DNA of 64,000 bases, taken from Naegleria gruberi. Taxonomy: Eukaryota. The notes beneath the pieces were generated by a model. The model was not told where the DNA came from. It was given only the letters and a program-made list of their open reading frames with translations, and searched no databases. A program made the position numbers and the translations under genes. The stretch lies in NCBI GenBank assembly GCA_000004985.1, contig GG738861.1; one strand, given 5' to 3'. This document shows, in pieces, positions 1 through 39,962 of this stretch. Each line of letters begins with the position of its first letter. Position 1 is the first letter of the stretch.

Positions 1-1230
1 TAATTAATAATTGGAAATTCATTTGATTTTTCCTCATGAACAAGAGTAAATTTCATCTTGTCACACAATCTAATCAAACCATACTGCAAACTCGAAATCT
101 TAATGATTATTGCTGAGGCATTTGTTTCTTTCAATAGATCCTTGATGGTCACTTCAAAGAGTTGTAAAGCTACGTGAAAATTCGGGTCGACCCATTCATC
201 TTTGGCAATATTAATGTGCTTTTTCAGAGAGAAATCAGTAATTTCAATGACACGAGCTGCATTAGTGAGATTTCTCTTTGTACTGCCACTGCAGAAAATT
301 AACTTTTCCAAAATGAATTTAGAGATGGCCAATTTTTCAACACTTCCATCCTGTTGAATTTCATATTCTAAATATTTAATATGTCCATGAACAATTTGAG
401 GTAACTTGTTGAAAACAGTCTCCTCAGAATTTTTCCAACTCTTATCAATGATTAGATATTCGGTAGAGAAGTAATCTTCATGAATGTCTTGCTTATTCCT
501 ATATTTTTCCAAATTTTTTCTCGTTTCTCTTTGAATATATCTCAGAATCCAATAATATTCAAAGAAACTCAAAGCCAACAAGAATACAGTAAATGAGAAG
601 AAAAACACCATGATATAAAATACACTGGACAAGGCAGTACTATTCCTTAAAAAACTAATGAAAAAATCCATAGTACCCATTTGTGAAATATCTCCCTTCA
701 AATTCATTTCGTTGAGGGCTCGATTTGTTATCGAATTAAACACTGAATTTTCCATAAAATCCCCAACCCAAGAAAATTTAACAAGAGCAACCATACAAAT
801 TGCATTCATTACAACCAATCCCAACAGGAATACCAACATTTTAAAAGGTCCATAATAATATTGCATCAAAGAGTAGAAATTATCAGTGTGATCAACTTTA
901 GAATTCCAATTCAGAGAAAATAATGATTGATGTGAATGTTTCCAATACTCATCTCTCGATGATTGTTCATCCTCTTCGGCATCAAGCAGAAAATTATATT
1001 GAATGCCATATTCTTGATTGTTTTTCTTCGTTCCGACCACTCCATCATTACTCTTGAACAAGATATTAGGAAATATATTGGTAGGAAGTGAATAATCAGA
1101 CAAGAAGGAAATATCCTTCAAATGCAAAGACAATTCAATTGGTAATTGTTTTTCATCTTGTTCGGAACATGATGAGAAATGAGAGAGAAACTCTTCCTTA
1201 TTCACTACTGCAACTTGACTCATTTTTTTG
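1..1230 (-). CDS. 5' part of a membrane-protein gene (partial; continues beyond window start). ATG at 1230..1228 (MSQVAVVNKEEF...), >400 codons open to position 1
   Basis: Manual translation of the minus strand from the ATG at 1228-1230 runs with no stop to the window edge. Amino-acid composition is diverse, with hydrophobic TM-like segments (FYIMVFFFSFTVFLLALSFF). Absent from the ORF track because no stop lies inside the window. Confidence 0.55.
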
Positions 1231-1483: not shown

Positions 1484-2609
1484 TTAACAACCCAAAACAC
1501 TCTTGGCCTTAATCCAGTGGTTATCACGATCTTCCTTACCATTGAAACCACCATTAATACGTTTAGTACAGGTATCAAAACCAGTTTGATCACATCTATC
1601 AGCATATTGACTCAATCCAGCACGATTCCTATATAGAAATATGATAAATATGTCAAATAATGAATATTCATTAACACTTACCAGAACCAAACAGCAGTAC
1701 GGAATCCAATATCTGGATCAGCAGCTCTAGTTGGATTATTTTCCAAATCAACTCCGAGAGCTTGACCAGCTGCACGATAATTGGCTCTACCAGTAATTTG
1801 AATTGGACCTCTTCCCTTATACTATTGTTCATTGAAATTTAGTATATTAATATAAAGAAAATGAAACTTACTCTAACACCATCACCAGGATAGATATTTC
1901 CCAAATCCTTTCTTCCTTCATAAGCAGCTCCAGAAGCAAATTCAGTAAACCCTAATCAATTAATATTAATATGAATGTTAATTATTAATATTCAGAGTGC
2001 ATAACACTTACAATTCAAATCACCAGATTCATGGGCAATTTGAGCCAAGAAGGCAGTCATTCTACAACATGTACTAATTCCTCCTTCGGCCATGGCACTG
2101 TTCAAAAAAGTAATGTATTGGATAGCCTTTGTACCGGACAAGTTTGGCATGATAGCTCTCAAACTTTGAATGCTAACAGATGCTGAGAATGAAGCATAGC
2201 TCTTAATAGTAACAAAGTTAGAGGCAACATAACCAGAACCAAATGAACCAGAAACAAGATACCTTTTTTTGATTAATCAAACCGGACGGATATGAAATGA
2301 ATGTGAAAGAACAAATAAGAAAGTGGACGGACAGGGTATTTGATTGTTGTAATCGTTCATATACTTTGTTACAGATTCATTGAAAGATTAATTTACATAC
2401 CATGTGTATCCACAACCGTTTTCCATTTGACCACCGAATTTAACTTCAACACCATGAGGGAGTGTGGTCATGAGATTATAATCGGTGCATGGACCATCTC
2501 TCACTTTTAATCCGGATGGAGCATTCACAATCAATGTGTCTCCGTTTTGCAAGCCAAAAACAGCTTGACACAATAATATGAAGGCAATTAAGGCCGTAAA
2601 CAATTTCAT
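1484..2609 (-). CDS. Secreted SH3b-domain + GH19 (chitinase/lysozyme-like) hydrolase. 5 exons approx 2401..2609, 2012..2262, 1872..1951, 1682..1821, 1484..1628 (274 aa)
   Basis: Signal peptide MKLFTALIAFILLCQAVFG. Bacterial-SH3-like segment (LIVNAPSGLKVRDGPCTDYN...GCGYTWY). GH19 hallmark blocks FLAQIAHESGDL, YKGRGPIQITGRANY, GVDLENNPTRAADPDIGFRTAVWFW. Four introns with GTATGT/GTAAGT donors and AG acceptors restore one continuous frame; summed exon length 825 nt = 275 codons. Confidence 0.75.
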
Positions 2610-22349: not shown

Positions 22350-24972
22350 TTATCTTCTTCTGTTGTTTGTTGGTTTGCTTTCAGCAAGTTTTGCCTCAAG
22401 TTCTTGTTTCTCCTTATCCTTGTCTTCCTTGGTCTTCTTCCTGTATTTGAGTGGAAGTTTTTGAGTGAATTGTTTCATCTTCAAGTCATCTTGTTTGTAA
22501 ATTGGATCAATTTTGGAAAGTGGTGAAATGAATTCCTCCAACTCTATAGGGCGTTCAATGATTTTTTTAAGCCTTCTTTCATTCAATACAGAATCGCAAA
22601 TAAGTTTGATATTGGAAACTGTATAGTTGGTTGCAATATGTGCAAGAGTGTGCAAATCAAAATCTTCCCTCAATGGTTTACCAATTCTCTCCTCGATAAA
22701 TGCTTTCCAAATCATTCTGTATGATGCATAATCTGGTAAGGTTGTATAGACCATCTTATCAAAGAATTCATCGAAAAGGGCTGGATCAGCATCCCAAGGT
22801 TCATCCATAGATCCAACAATAAGAATTCTGTCCTCAGGAGCCAGTGCCTTCATTTGAGTGACGAGTGGCTTTCTGAATCTCTTCATGTTTGGTTTAGTTT
22901 TACCCTTACCCTTTCCCTTAATCACTGTGTCAAAATCATCGATATAGATAATGGCAGGTTGCATTTCCTTGGCAACACGGAATATTTTTGCAATCATTGT
23001 AGTGGTCTCGCTCTGTTCGGTATTAATGTTTTGTGTAATTGCAGGTGACAAATCAAAGAATAAAGCTCCCAACTCGTGAGCGATTGAGTGTACCAAGCTT
23101 GTCTTGCCTGTTCCCTTATGTCCATAGAACATGACCGATCTTAAAAGTGGTGCTAACTTGTGAACATTTGGAGTAGACATGTACAAGACAATTTCCTTGC
23201 AAAAGTTTCGTATTTGGAAAATAGAAGGTTCTTCCCACTCAAGAATAGAACCTATCAATCTATTTTCTCCAATGTAAGAATCGAGCTTTTTAGGTGGAAC
23301 CTTATTAATAATGCCTAGAGAAGCAAGCTCAGAGAAGAAGGCTTCAGAGTTTGGCACCTTAACAGGTTCTTTTTCAGGTTTCGTTGGTTGAGGTTTTCCA
23401 GGCTTAGTTTCCCTCTTTGGAGGGTTTTCACTTTCCAATTGCATTCTGATATTTTCCAATTCTTCACGAATTTGTTTGTCAACCTTTTTTCTTATTTCCT
23501 CCTCAATACCAGAATCACCCTCCATCAACTCTTTTCTCAAAAGTAAAGGATCATATTTTTGATCAAAATCGAGTGATGAATATCTATCTCTCCACTTTTC
23601 CACAAATGATTTCAAAATATTTGCAATATTGGCAATAAACTTCGATTCGTCCTTAAATTTTGGTTCCTCTTCAACAGGTCCCTCTTTTCCTTTTGTTGGT
23701 GGTTTTGGCTTTGGTTTTGGAGGAGCTTTTTGATTTCCTTTTGGTTTTGGTTGATTGGCTTGCTGCTTTTGTTCTTGGAGAAGTTTCTTTTGTTCCTCAG
23801 TGGCATTCATAATGTTTTGCATGAAAGCTTTAGAACCTCCTTCAGCCTCAGAAGGAAAACTTGGTATTCCTCCATCACCTTCTTGTCTGTACAATAGGAT
23901 TTGTTCCATTAAAGCATCATGCATCTCTTCCATCATATGAGGACCTTCATCTTCAAGAATTTTAGCTCTCAATCTAACTCTTTGTTCCTCCAATTCTCTC
24001 TTATTGTCTGCTTGTTTGATTTTTCTCTTGGCCCTTCCCAAATTTTCAGCATTTACAATTTTAACTTCTCGGGTTTCTTCATATTCAATGGTTGGTGAAG
24101 AGTCCTCAACTGAAACATCCTTAGCTTTCTTTTTTGTTTGTTTTGGTTCCTCAGTTGACATTCCAATAAATTTTGCTTCCTCTTGCTTTTCCCTAGCAAC
24201 TCTCTTTCTCCAATAATAACCACGAAAAACTTTTTGAATTTTGACGGCAGCTTCATCTATCAAAGATTCAGATTCTTCCTTTTTTTGATGTTGTTTTCTT
24301 TCTTCTGAGAGTTTTTGGTCATACTTGCTTCTTGCCAACTTTCTTCCCTGTCTTGCTCTTTCATTGGTTTGGATGATGAGGATGGCTTGATTTATAGTCA
24401 TGGCTGGTTGAGATTTCTTTGTATCGATAACTGGCTCACTTCTATAATCACCATTTGAGTTTGGTCTTTTTCTCAAAACATCCAACAAGATTTCTCTTCT
24501 CCTTTTTTCCTTATCATTATCTTCAATGATGAAATGAGGAGTTCTTAATTCGAGGGCAGTCGGATCCAATTTCAAATCAATTAATACATCATCAAATTCA
24601 CTGTACTCCCCGAGTAGCGTATTTACAAGGGCTTTAACTTCAAGTATTCTTCCCATAACATGTTCCAAAACAACCTTCAGGTCTTCTCTTTTTTGAGGTT
24701 GAAGGAGTTGATCATAACATTCCTAATGATGACGATTGATTGGTTATCACAACTATAATACTATTATCGAAATACCATACCTCTAACTTGTTGTATAGAT
24801 TAATATATTTTACATAGAGAGACTGGTAGTGCTGATTAAATACATGTTGTTGCTCGATAGGATTTTTTGGAAGATTGGCTTTTGATGATACCTGAGTTTC
24901 TCCAATTAAAATCAAGTCTCTCAATTCTACAAGCACTTCCGAGAGTTGTCCCTCATAATAATTGTTTGACAT
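22350..24972 (-). CDS. IQCA1: IQ-motif + AAA ATPase domain protein (IQCA1 / dynein regulatory complex DRC11-like), 2 exons approx 24781..24972 and 22350..24722 (~855 aa)
   Basis: Track ORF 22350..24668 starts at TTG. It extends upstream in frame to the acceptor cattag|GAATGT and joins ORF 24712..24972 (true ATG) via a GTATGG...TAG intron (24723..24780, 58 nt, phase 0). IQ motif IQKVFRGYYWRKRVAREKQ. AAA Walker A GHKGTGKTSLVHSIAHE. Long E/K-rich coiled region. Confidence 0.75.
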
Positions 24973-27836: not shown

Positions 27837-30800
27837 ATGCCACCAGTAAGTAAATCGTTCTCTCTCTGAAATAATTTTTACACCTTTGAAATTCTAGAAA
27901 CCTGCTCCGGGAACGCAAAAGATTACATCCTTCTTTTCTGTGAAGAAACCAACATCTTCATCAACAGATAAATCACCAAAAAAGCCCTCAGCAAGGTTTG
28001 TTATTTTAATTTAAATTTAAATTTACAATCAAATGCAGCAGTAGCAATGGCAATATTGAAAATCCAAACAAACGTAAAAGAGAGTCTGTCACCCTTGAAT
28101 TGAGTGATGATTCTGATGGATGTGCATCACCAATTCTTACCAGGTCTCAGAGAGCAGAACAAGTTAAATCTCCATCATCATCCACACCTTCCAAATCAAC
28201 AACAAGCACAACACCAACCAAATCTACACCAACTAAATCATCAGCATCTAAAACAACCACCAGTAGTACTAGCAGCAGTAGTAAATCAACCAAATCTACA
28301 CCAACTAAATCCACTGTCACACTCAAGAAGCAACCAACAAGTGTAAAAGATGAAGATTGGAGTGATGATGAAAGAGATTTTGGTAAAGACAAGATAGTGT
28401 TGAATAAGGCAACACCAACCAAGTCTCCAGTAGTAGCTCAAAAGAACACAAAGATTATATTGGATGATGATGCGCTCAGTAGTCAAGATGTTGTTTCATC
28501 CCCTTCCACTAAAAAGAGAAAGACTAGCTCTCCATTCACCAAATCGCCAAGAAAAGTCAAAGAAGAGGAAGTTGAGGAGAAACCTAAAACAACACCAAAG
28601 AAGGAGGTTAAAAAAGAGGAAAAGAAAAAAAAGAATGATGACGACGATGAAGAGAAACCAGCCGAAACCAAAAAGAGAAACTTTTATGATAAGACACAAC
28701 ATCAAAATCAGCAAAAAGCTAAAAATCATGGATGTAAAACTGTGCCTGTCGGAAAAGCAAATTGTCTCAAAGACAAATCTTTTGTTATTACTGGTCAAAT
28801 GGAATCACTCGATAGAGATGAAATGGAAGACCTCATTAAGCAATATGGAGGTGTGATTCGTGGAAATGTTTCTGGAAGAACCAGCTTTGTTGTAGTTGGT
28901 GATGGGCCTGGAGAAAGTAAAATGAAAAAAGTTAGAGAACACAAAACTAAGCAACTTTCAGAGGATGATTTGTTGGAAATGATTGCAAAATCAAACCCAA
29001 GTGGAAAAGATTCTATGGATGAAACAGATGATGATGTCAGTCCTCCACCACAAAAGTTTATTCCTCCTTCAAAACCAAACTCTGTTGGTGCTTCCACCAC
29101 TCAAGTTATCAAATCCAAAAATGCTGACGATCAACTTTGGGTTGAAAAGTACAAACCATCCACGTCTTCGCAAATTATTGGACATAATAAGGAATGTGGA
29201 CTTTTACTTAATTGGTTAAAGGAGTGGCATGCGAATCTTGACAAGGAAATTCAAGCTGCCTCAACGCAAACTAAGGGAAGAAAGAAAGCAGCAACTGAAT
29301 GGAAGAGAGCAGCCTTCCTATCTGGTCCTCCAGGTATTGGTAAATCAACTTCAGCAGCTCTAATTGCCAAGGAGGCTGGGTTTACAAATATTGTAGAATT
29401 GAATGCATCTGATAGTAGAAGCAAAAAGGCAATGAAGGAACAAATTGTAGAATCTTGTCTCTCCAATAATATTTCCAATTATTTCCAAAAGAAGGGTCAA
29501 CCAAAACCTAAAGATGACAAACAACGAACTATTGTTATCATGGACGAAGTTGATGGTATGTCGAGTGGTGATAGAGGTGGAGTTGTTGAGCTTGTTCAAA
29601 TTATCAAACAAACTCGTGTGCCTGTCATTTGTATTGCCAATGATAGATCTAAAATCTCCTTGAAAACTCTCATTACTCACTGTTTGGATCTCAAATTTAG
29701 CAGACCTAGCAAGGCTACAATTACCAAAAAATTATTGGAAGTCTGTAAGAAGGAAAATCTCAGCATTGACAATAATGCTTTGGAATATATGGTTGAATCT
29801 CTGAACAATGATATCAGAAGTGTGTTGAATAATCTCCAACTCATCAATAGATACAGTGCTAAAGATCATATTGGCTATTTAGACGCCAAGAGTAGTGACT
29901 TGACAAAAACCAGCTCAACAGACGGTATTTTTGATGTTGTAAAGGATGTACTTGGGCAAAACAGCAAAAAGTACAATGAAAGACTTGAAGACTTTTACTT
30001 TGATCCAATGCTTGTACCTCTGTTCGTTGAACAGAACTATATTAATATAAGGCCACCTGGAGATGATAAGGAGAGAATTCAAAGAATTTCATATGCATCT
30101 GATTCCATTTCTATGGGTGATATTGTTAATTCCAAGATTAGAAAGGAAATGTCATTTGGTCTCATGAATTCTCATGCATTCTACAGTACCATGTATCCTG
30201 CTTACTTTATTCGAGGTTCTTTCCAAGCATTGAGAGGTTATGACAAGTATTATCAATTCCCAGCCGTTTTGGGTAAAGGAAGTACAACAACAAAGAACTA
30301 TAATGCTCTTAAGACTATTCAAAAGACTACATCACTCAAAGCTAGTGCCGACACTTTGGAAATGTTAGACTACCTTCCACTTCTTTCTAAAACTCTTCTC
30401 AATCCTCTTTTGGGTGGAGACAAAGATGTTCAGGAAACAATTGAAGCAATGGATGAATATCAAATTTCTCGTGATGATTTAGAGTTTATGTGTGAATTAT
30501 CAACATTTAAGGGAAAGAATTCATCTGACCAAAATAAGGATTGGTTCTCTGAGATTGATACTAAAACCAAGACAGCTCTTACTAGACAATATAACAAAGC
30601 TCACAAGGGATTTAACAAGGTTAGTGCAGCAGCTGCCCTCTCAAAGGTTGAAGACGAGGAAAATCCTGAAGCAGAGGAAGAGGACGAAGAAGAAGATTTA
30701 AAGGCTGATAAGTTTGTTACCAAGATGAAGAATATTGCCAAACTTGAAGCATTTGAAAAGAAACGAGAAAAGGCTGAAAAAGCTGAAAAGAAGTCAACCA

Positions 30801-30916
30801 AAAAGACAACCAAGAAGGAGACAACAAAGAAAGAGTCAACCAAAAAAGAGTCAACTAGCAAAAAGGAAGTTAAAAAAGAGACTGAAAAAAAGCCACTTGT
30901 GCTTAAAAAGAAATAA
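27837..30916 (+). CDS. RFC1: Replication factor C large subunit (RFC1), 3 exons approx 27837..27845, 27898..27995, 28039..30916 (~995 aa). N-terminal PIP box encoded in the micro-exons
   Basis: Track ORF 28100..30916 begins at TTG; its frame stays open upstream to the acceptor AAATGCAG at 28037-38. Exon 1 is ATG CCA CCA | GTAAGT. Exon 2 encodes KPAPGTQKITSFFSVKKP... (Qxx[I]xx[F][F] PCNA-interacting motif) and ends AG|GTTTGT. BRCT domain (KSFVITGQMESLDRDEMEDLIKQYGG). AAA+ clamp-loader core (LSGPPGIGKST, IVIMDEVDG). K/E-rich C-terminus. Confidence 0.85.
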
Positions 30917-31123: not shown

Positions 31124-31992
31124 ATGTATTTTGATACTCATAAACTTTTCCACGAGGATGCTCCAAAGCCAAACCAAAATGTTTTCCCATACGAACATTT
31201 AGTCATCAATGAAGATGCTAAGAAACATACACAGTATGTATTGTAATTTTGTATATTTTTCCTGATCGTAAAATCAATAATAATTAATTCATCATGATCT
31301 TGTTTGATGATGAATAACCTTGATACAACAATCCGAATAGAGACCCAATCGTTACTGGTACATCCATCTTGGGTATTAAATATAAAGGAGGAGTAATGTT
31401 GTGTTCTGATACTCTTGGATCATACGGTTCTCTTGCTAGATTCCGTTCTGTTGAAAGACTCAGAAAGGTTGGAAATAATACTCTTATCGGAGCTTCAGGC
31501 GAATACAGTGATTTCCAATATATTGTTGATTTATTAGAAAAATTAGTTGATAAGGATTTCTGTGCTGATGATAAGATTGAAACTCAACCAAAGGCAATTT
31601 TCCAATACTTGGTGCGTATTATGTATAACAGAAGAAACAAATTTAATCCATTGTGGAATACACTGATCGTTGCTGGTGTTAAAGATGGTAAATCATTCTT
31701 GGGTTATACTGATTTATTAGGATCAAACTTTGAGGATGACACTATGGCATCAGGTTATGGTGCTTATTTGGCCAAGCCAATTCTCAGAAAGTTCCTCGAT
31801 GAAAAGGGAGGAGATGTAAATAATATCACTGAACAAGAAGCCAAGGATGTTTTGGAAAAGTGTATGAAGGTTCTTTACTACAGAGATGCTAGAAGTATTA
31901 ACAAGATTCAAATTGCTACTGCCAACGAAACTGGACTCAATGTTACTGAACCTTACTCACTCCAAACAGAATGGGCTTTCAAAGGTTTTTAA
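31124..31992 (+). CDS. PSMB4: Proteasome subunit beta type-4 (beta7), 2 exons approx 31124..31233 and 31341..31992 (~253 aa)
   Basis: Strong match to the PSMB4 core (GGVMLCSDTLGSYGSLARFRSVERL...GASGEYSDFQYI...PLWNTLIVAG...GYGAYLA...RCMKVLYYRDARSINKIQIA). Track ORF starts at TTG. Upstream exon (MYFDTHKLFHEDAPKPNQNVFPYEHLVINEDAKKHTQ) joins via CA|GTATGT...AATAG|A (phase 2), giving ...TQDPIVTGTSILG, which parallels the animal propeptide/mature junction. Confidence 0.85.
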
Positions 31993-32200: not shown

Positions 32201-35034
32201 ATGTCTACAAAGGACGAAAGTGAATCACCACAAATTTCTGAAGAAAATACAGCTTCACCGCAAGCAACAAACTCTACCTATCAGAGAAGAATAGAATCTC
32301 TTCATCAGGAGCACAATAACGGCATCAAAAACTACTTAATTACTTTGGATCCTGCCGAATATAAATGTTGGTCAACAGAGGAAATATGTGCATTGTTGGT
32401 GTCGAGCAAATGTTTAGTGCTAGAAGATGTGCAACCACTACTTCAAGCCAAATTTAGAGGGGGAAGTATTGATAACATTATAATCGATATAAAACAAAAA
32501 GCTGGAAACTTAGAAGCAATATACGAAATAGAGCATAGATCCTTCCCCTCTGTTCCAATAGACACCCTTAAAAGCGTCGTAAATTGGATCAACTTTAATC
32601 TGATTCCAAACCTGTATCACAAATGGAGTGTTGCCCAAGTGAAAGAACTTTTGTGTTCAAATGGTGGATTGAGCGAACAAGAGTACTTGCCATTATGTGA
32701 GATCTCAGGTCAAGACTTGGTGAAAATAGTTCCATATGTAATTGATTGTCAACATGTATATATTAGGGAAAAGAAAATAGAATTATCCCCAAAAGCTTGC
32801 AAGAGAATTATTAGTACCCAATTCCACACTTTCCCAATAGAAAATTTACTATTTCAGTATGACATTGCTGGTCAAGAAAATAGACTCCTAAGACTAAAGA
32901 AACTTGGAATTGTGTGCTACGACAAGAAAATGTTGGGTTGTGTTCATGATTTGCTGATACTCTTAGAAAAATTAGAAATTGCAATCCAAGAATATGAAAA
33001 AAGAAAAACAAGTTCAATATCTGTATTTAATGAGCAAATGGACAAGTTGGGTTTGAGCAAGTCAGATTCTTATATTTATTTATACCCTAAACTTGATTTT
33101 GAAGATGAAGATGAAGAAACCTCTTTTTCTTGCGAACACGTTGTGTGCTCATTTGCTCCAACATTTCCTTACAATAAGTATGAGGATAGAGAAACTTATT
33201 TAAAGAGAAGAAATGTATTGACATTTACAGAACCTCCAGGAACAGGAAAAACTCATTCTGCTTTTCACTTAACGAGTTGTGGGAGAATGGTAATTCCTGT
33301 ATCACCAAAGCATATTTCCAGATTATTTCAACAATTATCCTTTTGTGGTGATTCACGTTTTGATTTGGACAGAATCACCCAAAAATTCACAGAGTTTTAT
33401 CACAGATTGGGTTGTTTTTTGATCAAGTATGCTGAATTGTATGTAAGGGAGACTAATCCACTCTCTTCATCTTCCATAATGCAATATATTTTGAGATTCC
33501 TTTGGAGCGGTGGGGGAAACTGGATTGGTGAGCAAGATTTGAGACTTTTTCTTCTATTTTTCCTCAACCTCAGTATAATAGAACTGTTTGGATTTTAGAT
33601 GAGGTTCAATGTATTGATTATGAATGTGGTTTAAAGGTACCCCGTCGTGATGCTGAAAGTGGTGACGGTTCCTTGTTGACCTTACTAGTTTCTTGGCTGA
33701 GATTAAAGGGTGCAGTGGTGCTTACTACAACAAATTTCTCTGCAGTCAAAGGTAAAATTGAAAGATTAATTTCATCAGATACTGGAAAAGAGGTTTTGGA
33801 AAAGTGTTCATACGAATTCAAATTACTTCCACTGCTTAATCCAAAGCAAGTCATTGAGTTTTTGAGGTATTTCATTACGGTAGACTCAAGAAGATTGTGG
33901 GTTTATGTTTCCTTCTTTTTACAAGGCACAATAAGAAATGTTGAATCTTTCTTGCAGAAATTGTATTTTAAAGCAAGTGAAGAAAAAGCTGCAGGTTTAG
34001 GTGATGACTTTATATTGAGTGTTCTTCATTCTTTTTGTAGAGACAAGGTTTCACTTAAATTGAGTAGAAAGGAAGAAATGGGTTCAACATTTCCAAATTT
34101 TGAATACATATTTTACAAACTAGCAATAGCTGGGGAAGTTAATCTGCAAGAGTTAAATCTCACTGAAGAACAATGCGAACTAACCAAATTTTTAATTTGT
34201 AACGGAGTGAGCTTTATCTACATGCAAGAGTCTTATACATACAAGTTATCAAGTTGCCTTGAAAAAGGAAGAATGTTGAATTATGTATTTGACAAGTTTA
34301 CAAAGAAAAATTGGGTTGCAGAAATATTTACAATTTTAGTTAATAACAAGAATTCTACTTCCCAAGACATCTCATTGCTTGCAGAAGTATTTCTTGTAGA
34401 TATACTTATTAATCACTTTGGTTCATTAATTGCTCCACTTGTTAAAGGTTCATATGTCGACTCGTATGAATTACTGGCGAAGCACTATTTTGAAGATCCT
34501 CAATCATCTACCATCGATAAAGATAATGTTAAGATGTCTTCATTGATGATCGAATATCTTGCTGTCCAGACAAAGAGCAAGTATGACACAATCTGTCAAT
34601 TTTTGTCTCGCACAGGACAGTTTGCTGAAATTGACATACTGGGAATATTGTCAACAAAAGATAGCAAAAATTGTTTACCAAGCGCTATTCCACTAACTGT
34701 AGCCATTTCCAGAAGTAACGACAACCAGTCCAAGAAATTGAAAAAAGACTTTGCCAGTTCAATGTACAGAAATAACTCGACCAAAAGGAAGAGTGTAAGA
34801 ATGTTATTTCATCCTAATTGCTCATATTCAAAGAGTTTAAATGACAGAATTACTGAGGGAACGTTTAATAATGAAACAGAGAAGGTAACAATCAAACAGG
34901 TCCTTACAGACTATTCTGTAATTACTGGAGATGATCAGTGTGTTATTGAGATTAGTTCTGGAATTGAAAAACAATGGCCTGAATGGAAACCATTTATGGA
35001 CAGTTGGAGAAAGCTTTTTGTTGAGAATCAATAA
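32201..35034 (+). CDS. Tandem SAM-like domains + P-loop NTPase + large alpha-helical C-terminal region, 2 exons approx 32201..33527 and 33599..35034 (~920 aa). Novel signalling NTPase candidate
   Basis: Track ORFs 32201..33598 and 33673..35034 join by a GTGAGC...GATTTTAG intron (33528..33598, 71 nt, phase 1). The first ORF's tail (LFLLFFLNLSIIELFGF*) is intron read-through and the second ORF has no ATG. SAM-like segments WSTEEICALLVSS...LEDVQPLL and WSVAQVKELLCSNGGLSEQEYLPLCEISGQDLVKIV. Walker A TFTEPPGTGKTHSAF. hhhTTN sensor-like AVVLTTTN after the junction. Confidence 0.6.
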
Positions 35035-35152: not shown

Positions 35153-36592
35153 TTAAGCAATTTCGAGACCTTCAATCTTTTCATCAATAATCTTGGTTTC
35201 AGGAAGAAGAATCTTGTTGGTAGCAATGTCAAATACCATAATGTAACTTCTAATGGCATCATCAGTTTCTTCTGACTTGACAGCAACAATTTCATTTGGT
35301 CTACCAGGAATAAATTTCACACTAGAGAAACCACGAGCTGGTGAAATAATCTCACCAATTTTTGTCACTGTAATATCACTGAAATCTTCAGAGGCAGAAA
35401 TGACATGATTGGAACCTCTTTGTTCATCCTTCTTTTCGTCATAGGTTTCGAAAGAAACTCTTCTTGGAAGGAAGAACCATCTCTTATGGAAGTCGCTCCA
35501 TTCAGCAGCTTCATGAACCATATATCCAGTAGTCTTAATTCCAACAGCTCTGAGCATCTTTTTATAATTTGAAACCCAATTAACATGTTCAACATGACCT
35601 CTATTATCAATAGTCTTAATATACATTGGATCATGATTGAGAATTTTACCTTCACCAGTTGTCCATTCCTTACCAATACTACCAATATATAACTTGTTAT
35701 CCTTAACAGTTGCCCATTCACATTTGAAACCTTTAGCAGTTGTTTCTCCATTACCATCCGGTAAAATGTGACGAGCAATGGCTCTAACTTGAACATTTCC
35801 ATCACTTCCCTTTGAGGTAATCAATTGATAAACAATACCAGTACGATCATCAGCAGAATATAATTTTCCATTGAACATTTTCAATTCAGAAAGTTCCATA
35901 CCACGTGATCCTTCAACTAAAAGACCATTAATTTCCCATGGTTTTTCATTAAATGAAACTGAATAAGCTCCAGTTTGTTCATTTCTCTTCAAAAGCCCTT
36001 TCAATAAGACACTCTTCCATTGGGTTCCCTTCTTATCATCAGTAACTTTACTTGCCTTATCTCTATCGGCAACAAGTAAAATTGGGAATTCAAGTCTTGA
36101 ACTTTGTTGAGAACTAATTGATGATTTTGGCACCTTTCCAAAGAGAGTAGAAGCATCAGAAGAAGATGAAAGTTGGTTAACATTGAGAGTACTATCAGGA
36201 TTCGATGAATAAAAAGCTACAACTGTAATACCAAGAGTAATCAATACCAAGGCAATAAAAACAGGATATAATATACGTTTGTTCTTCAACACAAAAGCAA
36301 AAAGTGAAGAAGTAGAGGACTTAGAGCCAGTATTATTGGCTTGACCATTTTCAAGATCGGACGATAACATTTCTGTGAGTGATTCTTCTGAAGAAAAGTT
36401 TGAATTGGTTTGATAAATAATAGGGGATTGGATAATAGAGGAAGATGTTGCAATGTTGAGAGGAGATGTGATGGTGGTGGTTGTATTGGTTGGAATATTA
36501 ATTGATAAATTGGCAAGTGGATGAGAATGGTTATTGTGTTCCTCTGATAAAAGATTGGTCAATGATTGAGTGGAGAATGTTCTCTTATGCAT
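35153..36592 (-). CDS. CANT1: Calcium-activated nucleotidase / apyrase (CANT1 family), type II membrane protein, 479 aa
   Basis: Extended collinear similarity to the CANT1 nucleotidase domain (MELSELKMFNGKLYSADDRTGIVYQL..., GFKCEWATVKDNKLYIGSIGKEWTT, VNWVSNYKKMLRAVGI, WSDFHKRWFFLPRR, GFSSVKFIPG, SYIMVFD, LLPETKI). N-terminal signal-anchor (ILYPVFIALVLITLGITVVAF). Confidence 0.85.
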   Translation of the reverse strand: MHKRTFSTQSLTNLLSEEHNNHSHPLANLSINIPTNTTTTITSPLNIATSSSIIQSPIIYQTNSNFSSEESLTEMLSSDLENGQANNTGSKSSTSSLFAFVLKNKRILYPVFIALVLITLGITVVAFYSSNPDSTLNVNQLSSSSDASTLFGKVPKSSISSQQSSRLEFPILLVADRDKASKVTDDKKGTQWKSVLLKGLLKRNEQTGAYSVSFNEKPWEINGLLVEGSRGMELSELKMFNGKLYSADDRTGIVYQLITSKGSDGNVQVRAIARHILPDGNGETTAKGFKCEWATVKDNKLYIGSIGKEWTTGEGKILNHDPMYIKTIDNRGHVEHVNWVSNYKKMLRAVGIKTTGYMVHEAAEWSDFHKRWFFLPRRVSFETYDEKKDEQRGSNHVISASEDFSDITVTKIGEIISPARGFSSVKFIPGRPNEIVAVKSEETDDAIRSYIMVFDIATNKILLPETKIIDEKIEGLEIA

Positions 36593-38774: not shown

Positions 38775-39962
38775 TTATTTATTCTTCTTTTCTTCAAAGG
38801 TTTCTTCCAAAGAGGAGGATTCTGTATTATTATTGAAATCATCGTCATCATCCTTTTCCCTATGGAAATATAAACGCTTATTTCGATTACTTGAATTGGA
38901 AGTCTTTTTAGTTGGGGTTGAATTCTTACTGCTAGTTTTTGTCATTCCATATCCACTTTCTGAGGCAATACCCTCGAGAACACTGATTGTAAGATTGAGA
39001 TCATTCTCTTGTTTTTCCAAACTTTCTTGAATTTCAATATCTTCCTCCAAATGTTCAGGTCTTTGTAAATGAGGTGGTAAAATCATTATTGAGGAGGGAA
39101 AATATTCCCTTCTCTTTTCATCAATACATTCATCCATAATTTGTACATCAGTATCGTCCACACTTGATAATTCATTTTCTCCCATTGAAGAATAAAAGGA
39201 GAGAGTTTTCATTGAGGATTCATTATTTTCATGATCCTCTTCGAGATGTTCTTGTTGTGTCGAGTTAAAATCGTTGGGTGTTGATTTTTGATAATCCTCC
39301 ATAATGGATGGTGGAATGGTGCTGCTGTTGGTGGTATTGTTGGAATCTTGATCCTCGTAGGCCTCTGGATTTTCACCTTCTGATGATTGTTGATCCTCTG
39401 CACCATTACTCATTTTCATTGCTGTTGGTGAGATAGTATCCAAATGGTATTGTGAAAATTCATGTTGTTGATAGTGTTGATTTGACAATTTGATCAATTT
39501 CAATGTATTCGGATTGAATTGAATATGAAATAAATATAAAGACATATTCAGACCATAGATATAATCACTGGCAAAATGTCTCTTTTGCTGAGTGAAAAAG
39601 TGCATAATCAGAAACAAGACAATCAAGAAAAAGGCAACTGCCGATATCAAATTACTCTCATATTGTTCCTGCTCAAGTTTAGCCTTTTCCAAATCTTTTG
39701 CTGTTGTACCACTCGGTTGAAATCTAACACAATTTTCGTGCCTTGTCGGAGATGATTTTGGCTTGGCTTGTTGCTGCTGATGATGACTTGAAGGATACTC
39801 GAATAGGCTATTGTTGTCATTATTGACTGAATTATTATTTGGTATTATTACATTGGTGCTATTGGTATTGGTGCTGTTATTGTGGATGAGAGAAGTGGGA
39901 CTCTCCACAATCTTGTATTTGTAATAATAAAAAGTGAAAAATCCTAGAATGAACAGTATCAA
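38775..39962 (-). CDS. Hypothetical low-complexity (N/S/Q/E-rich) membrane protein. Track start is a TTG, so the true 5' end is unresolved
   Basis: 395-codon open frame with two hydrophobic segments (LFILGFFTFYYY, AVAFFLIVLFLIMHFF) and long polar low-complexity tracts. No in-frame ATG at the start of the ORF. Confidence 0.35.
   Translation of the reverse strand: MILFILGFFTFYYYKYKIVESPTSLIHNNSTNTNSTNVIIPNNNSVNNDNNSLFEYPSSHHQQQQAKPKSSPTRHENCVRFQPSGTTAKDLEKAKLEQEQYESNLISAVAFFLIVLFLIMHFFTQQKRHFASDYIYGLNMSLYLFHIQFNPNTLKLIKLSNQHYQQHEFSQYHLDTISPTAMKMSNGAEDQQSSEGENPEAYEDQDSNNTTNSSTIPPSIMEDYQKSTPNDFNSTQQEHLEEDHENNESSMKTLSFYSSMGENELSSVDDTDVQIMDECIDEKRREYFPSSIMILPPHLQRPEHLEEDIEIQESLEKQENDLNLTISVLEGIASESGYGMTKTSSKNSTPTKKTSNSSNRNKRLYFHREKDDDDDFNNNTESSSLEETFEEKKNK

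What the first reader, a model, noticed from the sequence alone, without database searches (positions are those of the whole stretch)
32201..35034. Tandem SAM-like domains fused to a P-loop NTPase: unusual signalling-NTPase architecture split across two track ORFs
The N-terminal ~200 aa contain two segments with the SAM-domain consensus (W-x-x-x-hV-x-x-LL ... GL-x-x-x-EY ... F-x-E-x-x-I-x-G-x-x-L). A Walker A P-loop follows (EPPGTGKTH). After a 71-nt intron there is a hhhTTN sensor-like strand and a ~450-aa helical C-terminal region. SAM domains oligomerise, and in SARM1 and SAMD9/SAMD9L they gate large immune/death effectors. A SAM-SAM-NTPase of ~920 aa is not a standard housekeeping architecture and could be a STAND-like innate-immunity or stress switch in this protist.
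Basis: partly seen in the sequence, partly recalled or inferred. Interest (0 to 1): 0.7.

Follow-up and report, generated by a model that had tools for sequence, protein, structure and literature searches.

The report
SAM-like AAA+ NTPase gene, frame-broken
This is one Naegleria gruberi gene for an amoeba-specific ATPase with two N-terminal SAM-like modules. Its two reading frames are separated by a one-base frame break just before the Walker B motif, not by the proposed 71-base intron.

Summary

An AAA+-type P-loop NTPase follows, with GTGKT, TVWILDEVQ and LTTTN motifs. The C-terminal half matches no curated family or solved-structure sequence.

Detectable relatives exist only in Naegleria and Willaertia species and in unnamed environmental contigs. 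There the same SAM-like module heads at least five different NTPase cores, and decayed copies are common.

The splice claim fails. Homologues are colinear with the DNA across the junction. The closest relative stays homologous five codons past the proposed donor. The proposed intron would delete the Walker B strand. The RefSeq 143-nt intron is also refuted, because it deletes a conserved helix. No canonical intron fits 33542..33582, so the best reading is a one-nucleotide frame break: an assembly error, an allele or a young pseudogene.

An immune or STAND-type role remains an inference.

The parts
32201..35034 (+). Whole gene NAEGRDRAFT_66156, from the ATG to the TAA stop. It reads as about 944 aa if the frame break is repaired.
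32342..32602 (+). SAM-like unit 1 (aa 48-134). It is a degenerate copy: it has SSKCLVLEDV where the family consensus has GGAGLS.
32600..32836 (+). SAM-like unit 2 (aa 134-212). It is weaker and lacks the C-terminal VVNWV helix motif.
   Evidence: 24.7 bits, E 1e-9; best of 500 shuffles 6.0 bits; jackhmmer
32837..33229 (+). Linker with a long predicted helix and the conserved pre-NTPase block (FNEQMDKLGL..IYLY..SFAPTFPYNKYE).
   Evidence: alignment A2; secondary structure of the low-confidence model
33230..33256 (+). Walker A P-loop, EPPGTGKTH (GTGKT at 33239..33253).
   Evidence: G.GKTH is conserved in every aligned homologue that covers it
33439..33541 (+). Conserved coding segment YVRETNPLSSSSIMQYILRFLWSGGGNWIGEQDL. 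The RefSeq intron 33439..33581 deletes all of it.
   Evidence: Real 455.0 bits against shuffles 434.6 +/- 3.5, 0 of 300 reaching it. YILRFLW is identical and WIG.QD[LF] conserved in L005.
33542..33582 (+). Interval that must contain the net one-nucleotide frame break. It holds T5 runs at 33546-50 and 33557-61. Its only GT is at 33573.
33528..33598 (+). Not supported.
33583..33609 (+). Walker B, TVWILDEVQ (hhhhDE). D and E are invariant in the family.
33712..33735 (+). Sensor-1-like strand AVVLTTTN. L, T and T are invariant in the family.
   Evidence: It aligns to the VILTTSN sensor-1 strand of TRIP13, but not significantly.
33913..33954 (+). FFLQGTIRNVESFL helix motif (family consensus FLQGP.RR.E.FL). 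It resembles the GxP motif of STAND and Arch_ATPase lids.
   Evidence: Invariant F, Q, G, E, F and L. The GxP analogy is an inference.
33955..35034 (+). C-terminal helical plus alpha/beta region of unknown function. It carries the conserved block AEIDILG..IPLTVAIS..KKLKKDF..VRMLFHPN (34624..34818).
   Evidence: no Pfam or PDB sequence relatives

Best explanation
32201..35034 is a single protein-coding gene of Naegleria gruberi. It encodes a multidomain ATPase found only in heterolobosean amoebae. The domain order is two SAM-like helical modules, a helical linker, an AAA+-type P-loop NTPase (Walker A GTGKT, Walker B TVWILDE, LTTT sensor strand, helical lid) and a roughly 400-aa C-terminal region of unknown fold.

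The two ORFs are not exons joined by an intron. Coding sequence runs straight through, and the frame is broken by a net one-nucleotide change between 33542 and 33582. This is either an assembly error or allelic indel in a T-rich stretch, or a very recent inactivating mutation.

Inferred mechanism for the intact protein: a nucleotide-dependent switch that oligomerises through its AAA+ core. The SAM-like modules would supply homotypic contacts that cluster or recruit partners, and the C-terminal region would act as the input or sensor. This parallels SAM-bearing immune and death switches such as SARM1 and SAMD9.

The architecture and the junction reading are shown by the evidence. The switch, oligomerisation and conflict-related role are inferred.
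For: Identity: 97-100% match to the N. gruberi predicted protein.

Repeats and SAM-like fold. The best of 177,635 PDB sequences for the repeat profile is helix 1 of liprin-beta SAM, although not significantly (E 0.82).

NTPase:
- Invariant GKT, DE and LTTT motifs.
- The best PDB sequence match is TRIP13, aligned over Walker A, Walker B and sensor 1 (E 0.11).

Junction:
- Every homologue is colinear with the DNA. For P0002, a 12-aa gap in the protein corresponds to a 35-nt gap in the window.
- A family HMM built without the query scores no-intron models at 446-460 bits.
- The closest relative, L005 (about 49% identity), reads on as WIGLQDFNNKSV... and has no donor at the equivalent site.
- Four homologous genes have no intron at this position.
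- The N. fowleri model P0002 shows a spurious intron bridging an indel in this same family.

Family behaviour:
- The exhaustive search gave only 27 hits. Every hit that carries a species name is from Naegleria or Willaertia.
- The module heads at least five NTPase cores that show no specific similarity to this one.
- Decayed copies are frequent.
Against: - There is no transcript or independent genomic data, so the frame break cannot be classed as artefact, allele or real mutation.
- Retention of the segment between 33542 and 33597 is only weakly supported by residue order (18 of 300 shuffles reach the real score). Most of the score gain comes from avoiding a gap.
- Foldseek gives no significant PDB hit for the unit (best E 1.2). 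The Nab2 N-domain, which I recall to be PWI-like, also appears among the hits.
- HHalign covers only SAM helices 1-3, with probability 79%.
- The full-length model is poor (pLDDT 49), so the AAA+ clade is unresolved.
- No effector domain, no repeat-type sensor and no PADLOC, NCBIfam or Pfam hit above threshold.
- The neighbouring genes checked are mostly housekeeping.
Confidence: 0.6

Rival explanations
1. A 71-nt GT..AG intron (33528..33598) joins the ORFs into a 920-aa protein whose Walker B is GNWIDE.
For: GT..AG boundaries restore the frame without a stop. A pyrimidine-rich tract precedes the 3' end. The family HMM prefers this model to the RefSeq one by 9 bits. Short introns of roughly 45 nt do occur in relatives.
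Against: - It deletes TVWIL, the hydrophobic Walker B strand present in every homologue that covers the region.
- It deletes GEQDL, which is conserved as GLQDF in the closest relative, where no donor exists.
- It scores 12-26 bits below no-intron models.
- It leaves only 5 residues between the WSGG helix and DE, against 26-38 in homologues.
- The donor GTGAGC differs from the GTATGT/GTAAGT seen in three confirmed introns.
- No homologue has an intron here.
Confidence: 0.08
2. The RefSeq/JGI model. A 143-nt intron (33439..33581, GTATGT..TAG) gives the 896-aa protein XP_002678512.1.
For: It reproduces the database protein exactly. The donor GTATGT matches confirmed Naegleria introns. It keeps the canonical TVWILDE Walker B.
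Against: - It deletes 31 conserved residues, including YILRFLWSGG. Real 455.0 bits against shuffles 434.6 +/- 3.5, 0 of 300.
- That motif is identical in L005 and present in every homologue that covers this region.
- It is the second-lowest-scoring of the 26 junction models tested, 425.1 bits.
Confidence: 0.04
3. The locus is a recently inactivated pseudogene. The frame break is real, translation stops at 33598, and the product (SAM-like units plus a P-loop without Walker B) is non-functional or absent.
For: - No canonical intron fits the frame break.
- The family is full of decayed copies. L006 has three in-frame stops. NAEGRDRAFT_67763 is an internally deleted remnant in N. gruberi itself. 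N. fowleri P0004 lacks Walker B. P0002 is frameshifted relative to P0028.
- The N. gruberi copy has degenerate SAM-like motifs and lacks the GPD motif and about 30 aa of the C-terminal block.
Against: There is only one disruption in 2.8 kb. The downstream frame stays open for 500 codons in a 34% GC genome, so any inactivation is very recent. A consensus or allelic indel in a T-rich stretch explains the data equally well.
Confidence: 0.3
4. Non-canonical expression. Either a 50-nt GC-AG intron (33532..33581) giving ...GGGNWIGE|TVWILDEVQ, or a -1 ribosomal frameshift in the T-rich stretch.
For: The GC-AG model keeps both conserved flanks and scores 439.8 bits, the best of the intron models. The required shift is -1, and the interval contains CTTTTTC and ATTTTTC.
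Against: - The GC donor context GA|GCAAGA is weak.
- The GC-AG model deletes the QDL conserved in L005 and scores 6-20 bits below no-intron models.
- Read in the ORF1 frame, the interval has no canonical X XXY YYZ slippery heptamer (sequence). No downstream RNA structure was examined.
Confidence: 0.06

Closest known systems
SARM1 / TIR-1 (ARM - tandem SAM - TIR)
   Different: There is no TIR or other enzymatic effector and no ARM domain. Here the SAM-like units precede an AAA+ NTPase. The units are about 85-90 aa with six predicted helices and match no Pfam SAM model.
SAMD9 / SAMD9L (SAM - AlbA - SIR2-like - STAND-like P-loop - OB)
   Same: An N-terminal SAM-type module on a large P-loop NTPase. 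The known architecture is taken from PMC5445408.
   Different: The exhaustive phmmer search found no sequence relationship to any metazoan or bacterial protein. No AlbA, SIR2 or OB module was detected. The NTPase core is unrelated at the sequence level.
ORC/Cdc6-like and Arch_ATPase (PF01637) / AAA_16 / AAA_22-type AAA+ NTPases, and STAND NTPases (Apaf-1, MalT, Avs)
   Different: This orthogroup reaches no curated threshold (nSTAND3 12.8-14.7 bits against a cut-off of 27.2). There is no TTR sensor arginine, no LRR, WD40 or TPR sensor, and the clade is unresolved.
Kidins220/ARMS (ankyrin - KAP P-loop NTPase - SAM)
   Same: A SAM-type domain combined with a P-loop NTPase in a eukaryotic scaffold protein. 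This comparison rests on my own knowledge.
   Different: The domain order is reversed, the KAP NTPase carries transmembrane inserts, and no homology was detected.

Membership tests
SAM domain superfamily | Compact helical bundle with the SAM fold | tested here: met
SAM domain superfamily | Match to a curated SAM profile (Pfam SAM_1, SAM_2 and related) at the gathering threshold | tested here: not met
   No SAM family was reported at the E-value limits used (10 for the window protein and its segments, 1 for homologues) for the protein, its segments or 14 homologues.
SAM domain superfamily | Profile-profile similarity to bona fide SAM domains | tested here: inconclusive
   HHalign of the 27-unit profile against a validated 11-sequence SAM profile gives probability 79% and P 1.5e-5, but over only 38 columns, SAM helices 1-3. 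The best hmmsearch hit in the PDB is liprin-beta-1 SAM, E 0.82.
SAM domain superfamily | Homotypic or heterotypic oligomerisation through the mid-loop and end-helix surfaces | not testable with these tools
   This needs multimer modelling or biochemistry.
AAA+ P-loop NTPases | Walker A GxxxxGK[ST] | tested here: met
   PPGTGKT at 33233..33253. GKTH is conserved in every homologue that covers it.
AAA+ P-loop NTPases | Walker B hhhhDE | tested here: met
TVWILDE at 33583..33603 in the ORF2 frame, with D and E invariant.
AAA+ P-loop NTPases | Sensor-1 polar residue and AAA+ fold with a helical lid | tested here: inconclusive
STAND / NLR-like NTPases | Curated STAND NTPase profile (NACHT, NB-ARC, AAA_16, nSTAND) at threshold | tested here: not met
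   nSTAND3 scores 12.8-14.7 bits against a cut-off of 27.2, and covers the P-loop only. PADLOC gave nothing for this protein.
STAND / NLR-like NTPases | Sensor-1 arginine (hhhTTR), GxP helical module and winged helix | tested here: inconclusive
   TTT is followed by N, F, Y or E, never R. An FLQG[PTR] motif resembles GxP. A winged helix cannot be resolved in the low-confidence model.
STAND / NLR-like NTPases | Tripartite layout: N-terminal adaptor or effector, central NTPase, C-terminal repeat sensor | tested here: inconclusive
   The N-terminal adaptor-like module and central NTPase are present. The C-terminal half has no detectable LRR, WD40 or TPR repeats and no PDB relatives.
SAMD9/SAMD9L family | Sequence homology and AlbA-SIR2-P-loop-OB core | tested here: not met
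   The exhaustive phmmer search of 1.84 billion representatives returned only 27 hits. Every named hit is from Naegleria or Willaertia.

The most novel reading that the evidence does not exclude
Heterolobosean amoebae (Naegleria, Willaertia) may carry their own NLR-like repertoire. In it, a divergent SAM-like module would serve as the shared homotypic adaptor on at least five unrelated or highly diverged NTPase cores. Some of these cores are close to NACHT or Arch_ATPase types, and some may carry nuclease-like C-termini, which I judged by eye and did not test. The repertoire evolves by rapid duplication and decay. NAEGRDRAFT_66156 would be one member of this independently assembled protist innate-immunity or self/non-self system, for example against giant viruses or intracellular bacteria.
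Probability: 0.2. Interest if true: 0.75.

Novelty: new variant of a known kind. Interest (0 to 1): 0.42.

Why it matters
The gene and all its relatives are annotated only as hypothetical or predicted proteins, and none carries a Pfam domain. This work gives the family a defined domain architecture: an unrecognised SAM-like module on AAA+ NTPases.

It also shows that the module is shuffled among several NTPase families in amoebae that include the human pathogen N. fowleri. That makes a protist NLR-analogue hypothesis testable.

Any structural or functional work on this protein should start from a re-sequenced junction.

Tried and rejected
- Word-index homology searches returned only the query itself or nothing.
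- Exact-product look-ups for P0001, ORF1 and ORF2 found no independent contig, so the frame break has no second source.
- Two JGI metagenome scans, one with a protein profile and one with a conserved DNA probe, found nothing.
- The afdb50 fold library was unavailable.
- Full-length AF2 with 8 sequences gave a poor model (pLDDT 49). I used it only for the coarse AAA+ assignment.
- Profile searches of the NTPase core and the C-terminal half against PDB sequences gave nothing significant.
- PADLOC and NCBIfam gave nothing meaningful.
- HHalign of this NTPase core against the four sister-family cores showed only local P-loop or Walker B matches. I therefore dropped the idea that all SAM-like NTPases share one core.
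- Other splice combinations either hit stop codons or fit the family poorly. Donor 33528 with acceptor 33581 or 33573, and donor 33439 with acceptor 33598, give stops. Donor 33510 with acceptor 33598 gives a poor model, 424.4 bits.
- A PD-(D/E)xK reading of the C-terminal GPD..IPL..AV[ST] block was considered. The catalytic (D/E)xK position is not conserved, so it stays speculation.
- No paper mentions the gene's accession numbers.
Full report
**Source and locus**

The window is eukaryotic and AT-rich, about 34% GC. That entry is NAEGRDRAFT_66156 / XP_002678512.1 / UniProt D2VBB4, and no paper in the library mentions it. Of the flanking ORFs scanned, six match housekeeping-type families and one (38775..39962) has no Pfam match. 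They include RFC1 at 28100..30916, a proteasome beta subunit at 31369..31992, an apyrase at 35153..36592 on the minus strand, V-ATPase subunit C and an RCC1-repeat protein.

**Family**

Pfam, the PDB sequence search, PADLOC and NCBIfam give no hit above threshold. The only recurrent hit is nSTAND3, at 12.8-14.7 bits against a cut-off of 27.2, and it is confined to the P-loop. An exhaustive phmmer search of 1.84 billion representatives with P0001 returned 27 proteins. Every hit that carries a species name comes from N. fowleri, N. lovaniensis, N. gruberi or Willaertia magna, and each is annotated as hypothetical or predicted protein. The remainder are unnamed ENA, Logan or SRA contigs. Seven hits are relatives over most of the length: P0002, P0028, P0003, P0004, P0005, P0006 and P0008. 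The others share only the N-terminal 37-220 region.

**N-terminal repeats**

Iterated profile searches find a unit of about 90 aa. It is present twice in this protein and one to three times in relatives. A profile built without the query still finds aa 48-134 (59.3 bits) and aa 134-203 (24.7 bits, E 1e-9). The best of 500 shuffles of unit 2 scored 6.0 bits. The tandem repeat is therefore real.

The family consensus is [YF]xxW[ST]xEQVCSLLC..GGAGLSxExVKPLYDAGFDGTSLxNIV...VVNWVxNLL.

An AlphaFold model of unit 1, built on the 27-unit alignment, is confident: pLDDT 93.4, pTM 0.82, six helices. Evidence on its fold:
- Foldseek gives no significant E-value. SAM domains still dominate its list, with TM-score up to 0.70 for Scm. 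The Nab2 N-domain, which I recall to be PWI-like, also appears.
HHalign of the unit profile against this profile gives probability 79% and P 1.5e-5 over SAM helices 1-3.
- The best of 177,635 PDB sequences for the unit profile is helix 1 of liprin-beta-1 SAM, although not significantly (E 0.82).

These are highly divergent, extended SAM-like modules that curated SAM profiles do not detect.

**NTPase**

In the alignment of the core, the GKTH of Walker A, the D and E of Walker B, an LTTT strand and an FLQG..E.FL helix are conserved or invariant. In window coordinates these are:
- Walker A at 33230..33256
- Walker B TVWILDEVQ at 33583..33609
- AVVLTTTN at 33712..33735
- FFLQGTIRNVESFL at 33913..33954

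The C-terminal half has conserved motifs but no relatives in Pfam or among PDB sequences.

**Junction: candidate models**

- The RefSeq model uses a different intron, 33439..33581. It is 143 nt (GTATGT..TAG) and reproduces P0001 exactly.
- Neither model agrees with the homologues.

**Junction: evidence against both introns**

1. In tblastn, every homologue aligns in the ORF1 frame up to 33532 (...YILRFLWSGGGNWIGE). Each then aligns in the ORF2 frame from 33547-33589 (...PQYNRTVWILDEVQ). For P0002, a 12-aa gap in the protein corresponds to 35 nt in the window, which means colinear coding with a net one-nucleotide defect.
2. A family HMM built without the query scores no-intron, one-base-repaired models at 446-460 bits.
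3. Shuffling the 31 residues that the RefSeq intron removes lowers the score from 455.0 to 434.6 +/- 3.5, and none of 300 shuffles reaches the real value. That intron deletes genuine coding sequence.
4. The closest relative is ENA contig L005, at about 48-50% identity. It reads ...KQYILRFLWNRGGDWIGLQDFNNKSVNMLVDSSP in one open frame to the end of the contig. The window reads ...MQYILRFLWSGGGNWIGEQDLRLF.
5. The homologous genes in N. fowleri, N. lovaniensis, W. magna and contig L004 have no intron between the WNGG helix and Walker B.
6. With a one-base repair, the sequence aligns with the family across the junction with only a one-residue gap.

**Junction: conclusion**

Coding must run in the ORF1 frame to at least 33541 and in the ORF2 frame from 33583 at the latest. 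The intervening 41 nt hold two T5 runs. The only GT in that interval is at 33573, so no canonical intron fits. The best reading is a net one-nucleotide frame break.

I cannot tell whether this is a consensus or allelic error or a real, very recent mutation. Both halves are otherwise intact, and the downstream frame is open for 500 codons.

A precedent exists in the same family. The N. fowleri model P0002 has an "intron" that merely bridges a one-base indel relative to its near-identical paralogue P0028. Genuine introns in relatives are about 44-49 nt, with GTATGT or GTAAGT donors, and they lie inside Walker A. N. gruberi has no intron at that position.

**Wider pattern**

The same SAM-like module heads at least five NTPase groups with different P-loops and Walker B contexts. 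HHalign finds no specific relationship between those cores and this one. Some of them hit AAA_22 above threshold, and ATPase_2, AAA_16 or NPHP3_N just below it.

N. gruberi itself has at least one more SAM-like NTPase, NAEGRDRAFT_48169. It lies on a scaffold of the same length (507,294 nt) as the one carrying this gene, and is probably the same scaffold. N. gruberi also has an internally deleted remnant, NAEGRDRAFT_67763.

Recent duplicates and decayed copies are common:
- Clusters of copies at >= 90% identity in N. fowleri.
- L006, which carries three in-frame stops.
- P0004, which lacks Walker B.

This birth-and-death pattern and the module shuffling are typical of conflict-related STAND/NLR-like repertoires. 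That is circumstantial evidence and not a demonstration.

**Mechanism and verdict**

The following are shown:
- One gene, with two SAM-like units, an AAA+-type NTPase with intact catalytic motifs across the family, and an unknown C-terminal region.
- A frame break at the junction rather than an intron.

The following are inferred. The intact protein would be a nucleotide-driven oligomerising switch. Its SAM-like modules would mediate homotypic assembly or recruitment, as the tandem SAM domains of SARM1 do by established knowledge, and its C-terminal region would be the input.

The finding is a real, previously unannotated architecture. It is a variant of a known theme rather than a new kind of system.

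Noticed in passing
window 31124..31992 (+): The proteasome beta-subunit gene upstream appears to have a 107-nt intron at 31234..31340 (GTATGT...AATAG). It would join ...KKHTQ to DPIVTGTSILG. I used it as a local example of a Naegleria donor.
   Followed up: partly
L001 3850..3925 (N. fowleri VFQX01000016.1, gene FDP41_012640): The annotated 76-nt "intron" just after Walker A is read through as coding sequence in the near-identical paralogue FDP41_012661 (P0028). P0002 differs by a one-base indel, so the intron looks like an annotation device bridging a frameshift.
   Followed up: partly
L006 19..717 (ENA ERZ27254845 k141_2042801): A 40%-identical relative of aa 504-750 carries three in-frame stop codons, one of them inside the VVLTTT strand. 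It is apparently a pseudogene copy in an environmental Naegleria-like genome.
   Followed up: no
P0011 = NAEGRDRAFT_67763 (N. gruberi, on another scaffold): A 124-aa predicted protein joins a match to aa 280-345 of this gene (54% identity) directly to a match near the KMSSLMIEYLAVQ segment. It looks like an internally deleted remnant paralogue lacking the whole NTPase.
   Followed up: no
L005 about 629..672 and L002 about 1901..1946: Two relatives, an ENA contig and N. lovaniensis, share a short intron of about 44-49 nt that splits the Walker A motif (G|KTH). N. gruberi has no intron there, which suggests intron loss or gain within the family.
   Followed up: partly
window 28100..30916 (+) and 22350..24668 (-): Ordinary AAA+ genes lie nearby. 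One is an RFC1 homologue with BRCT, AAA and RFC1_C domains. The other is a classical AAA-domain protein. Neither is related to the finding.
   Followed up: partly
C-termini of sister-family proteins P0013, P0018, P0020, P0021 and P0030: Their C-terminal regions show D...QxK patterns, such as SDILIFG...HIQCKW and GIDGF...VVQNKF. These recall PD-(D/E)xK nuclease cores. I judged this by eye and ran no test.
   Followed up: no
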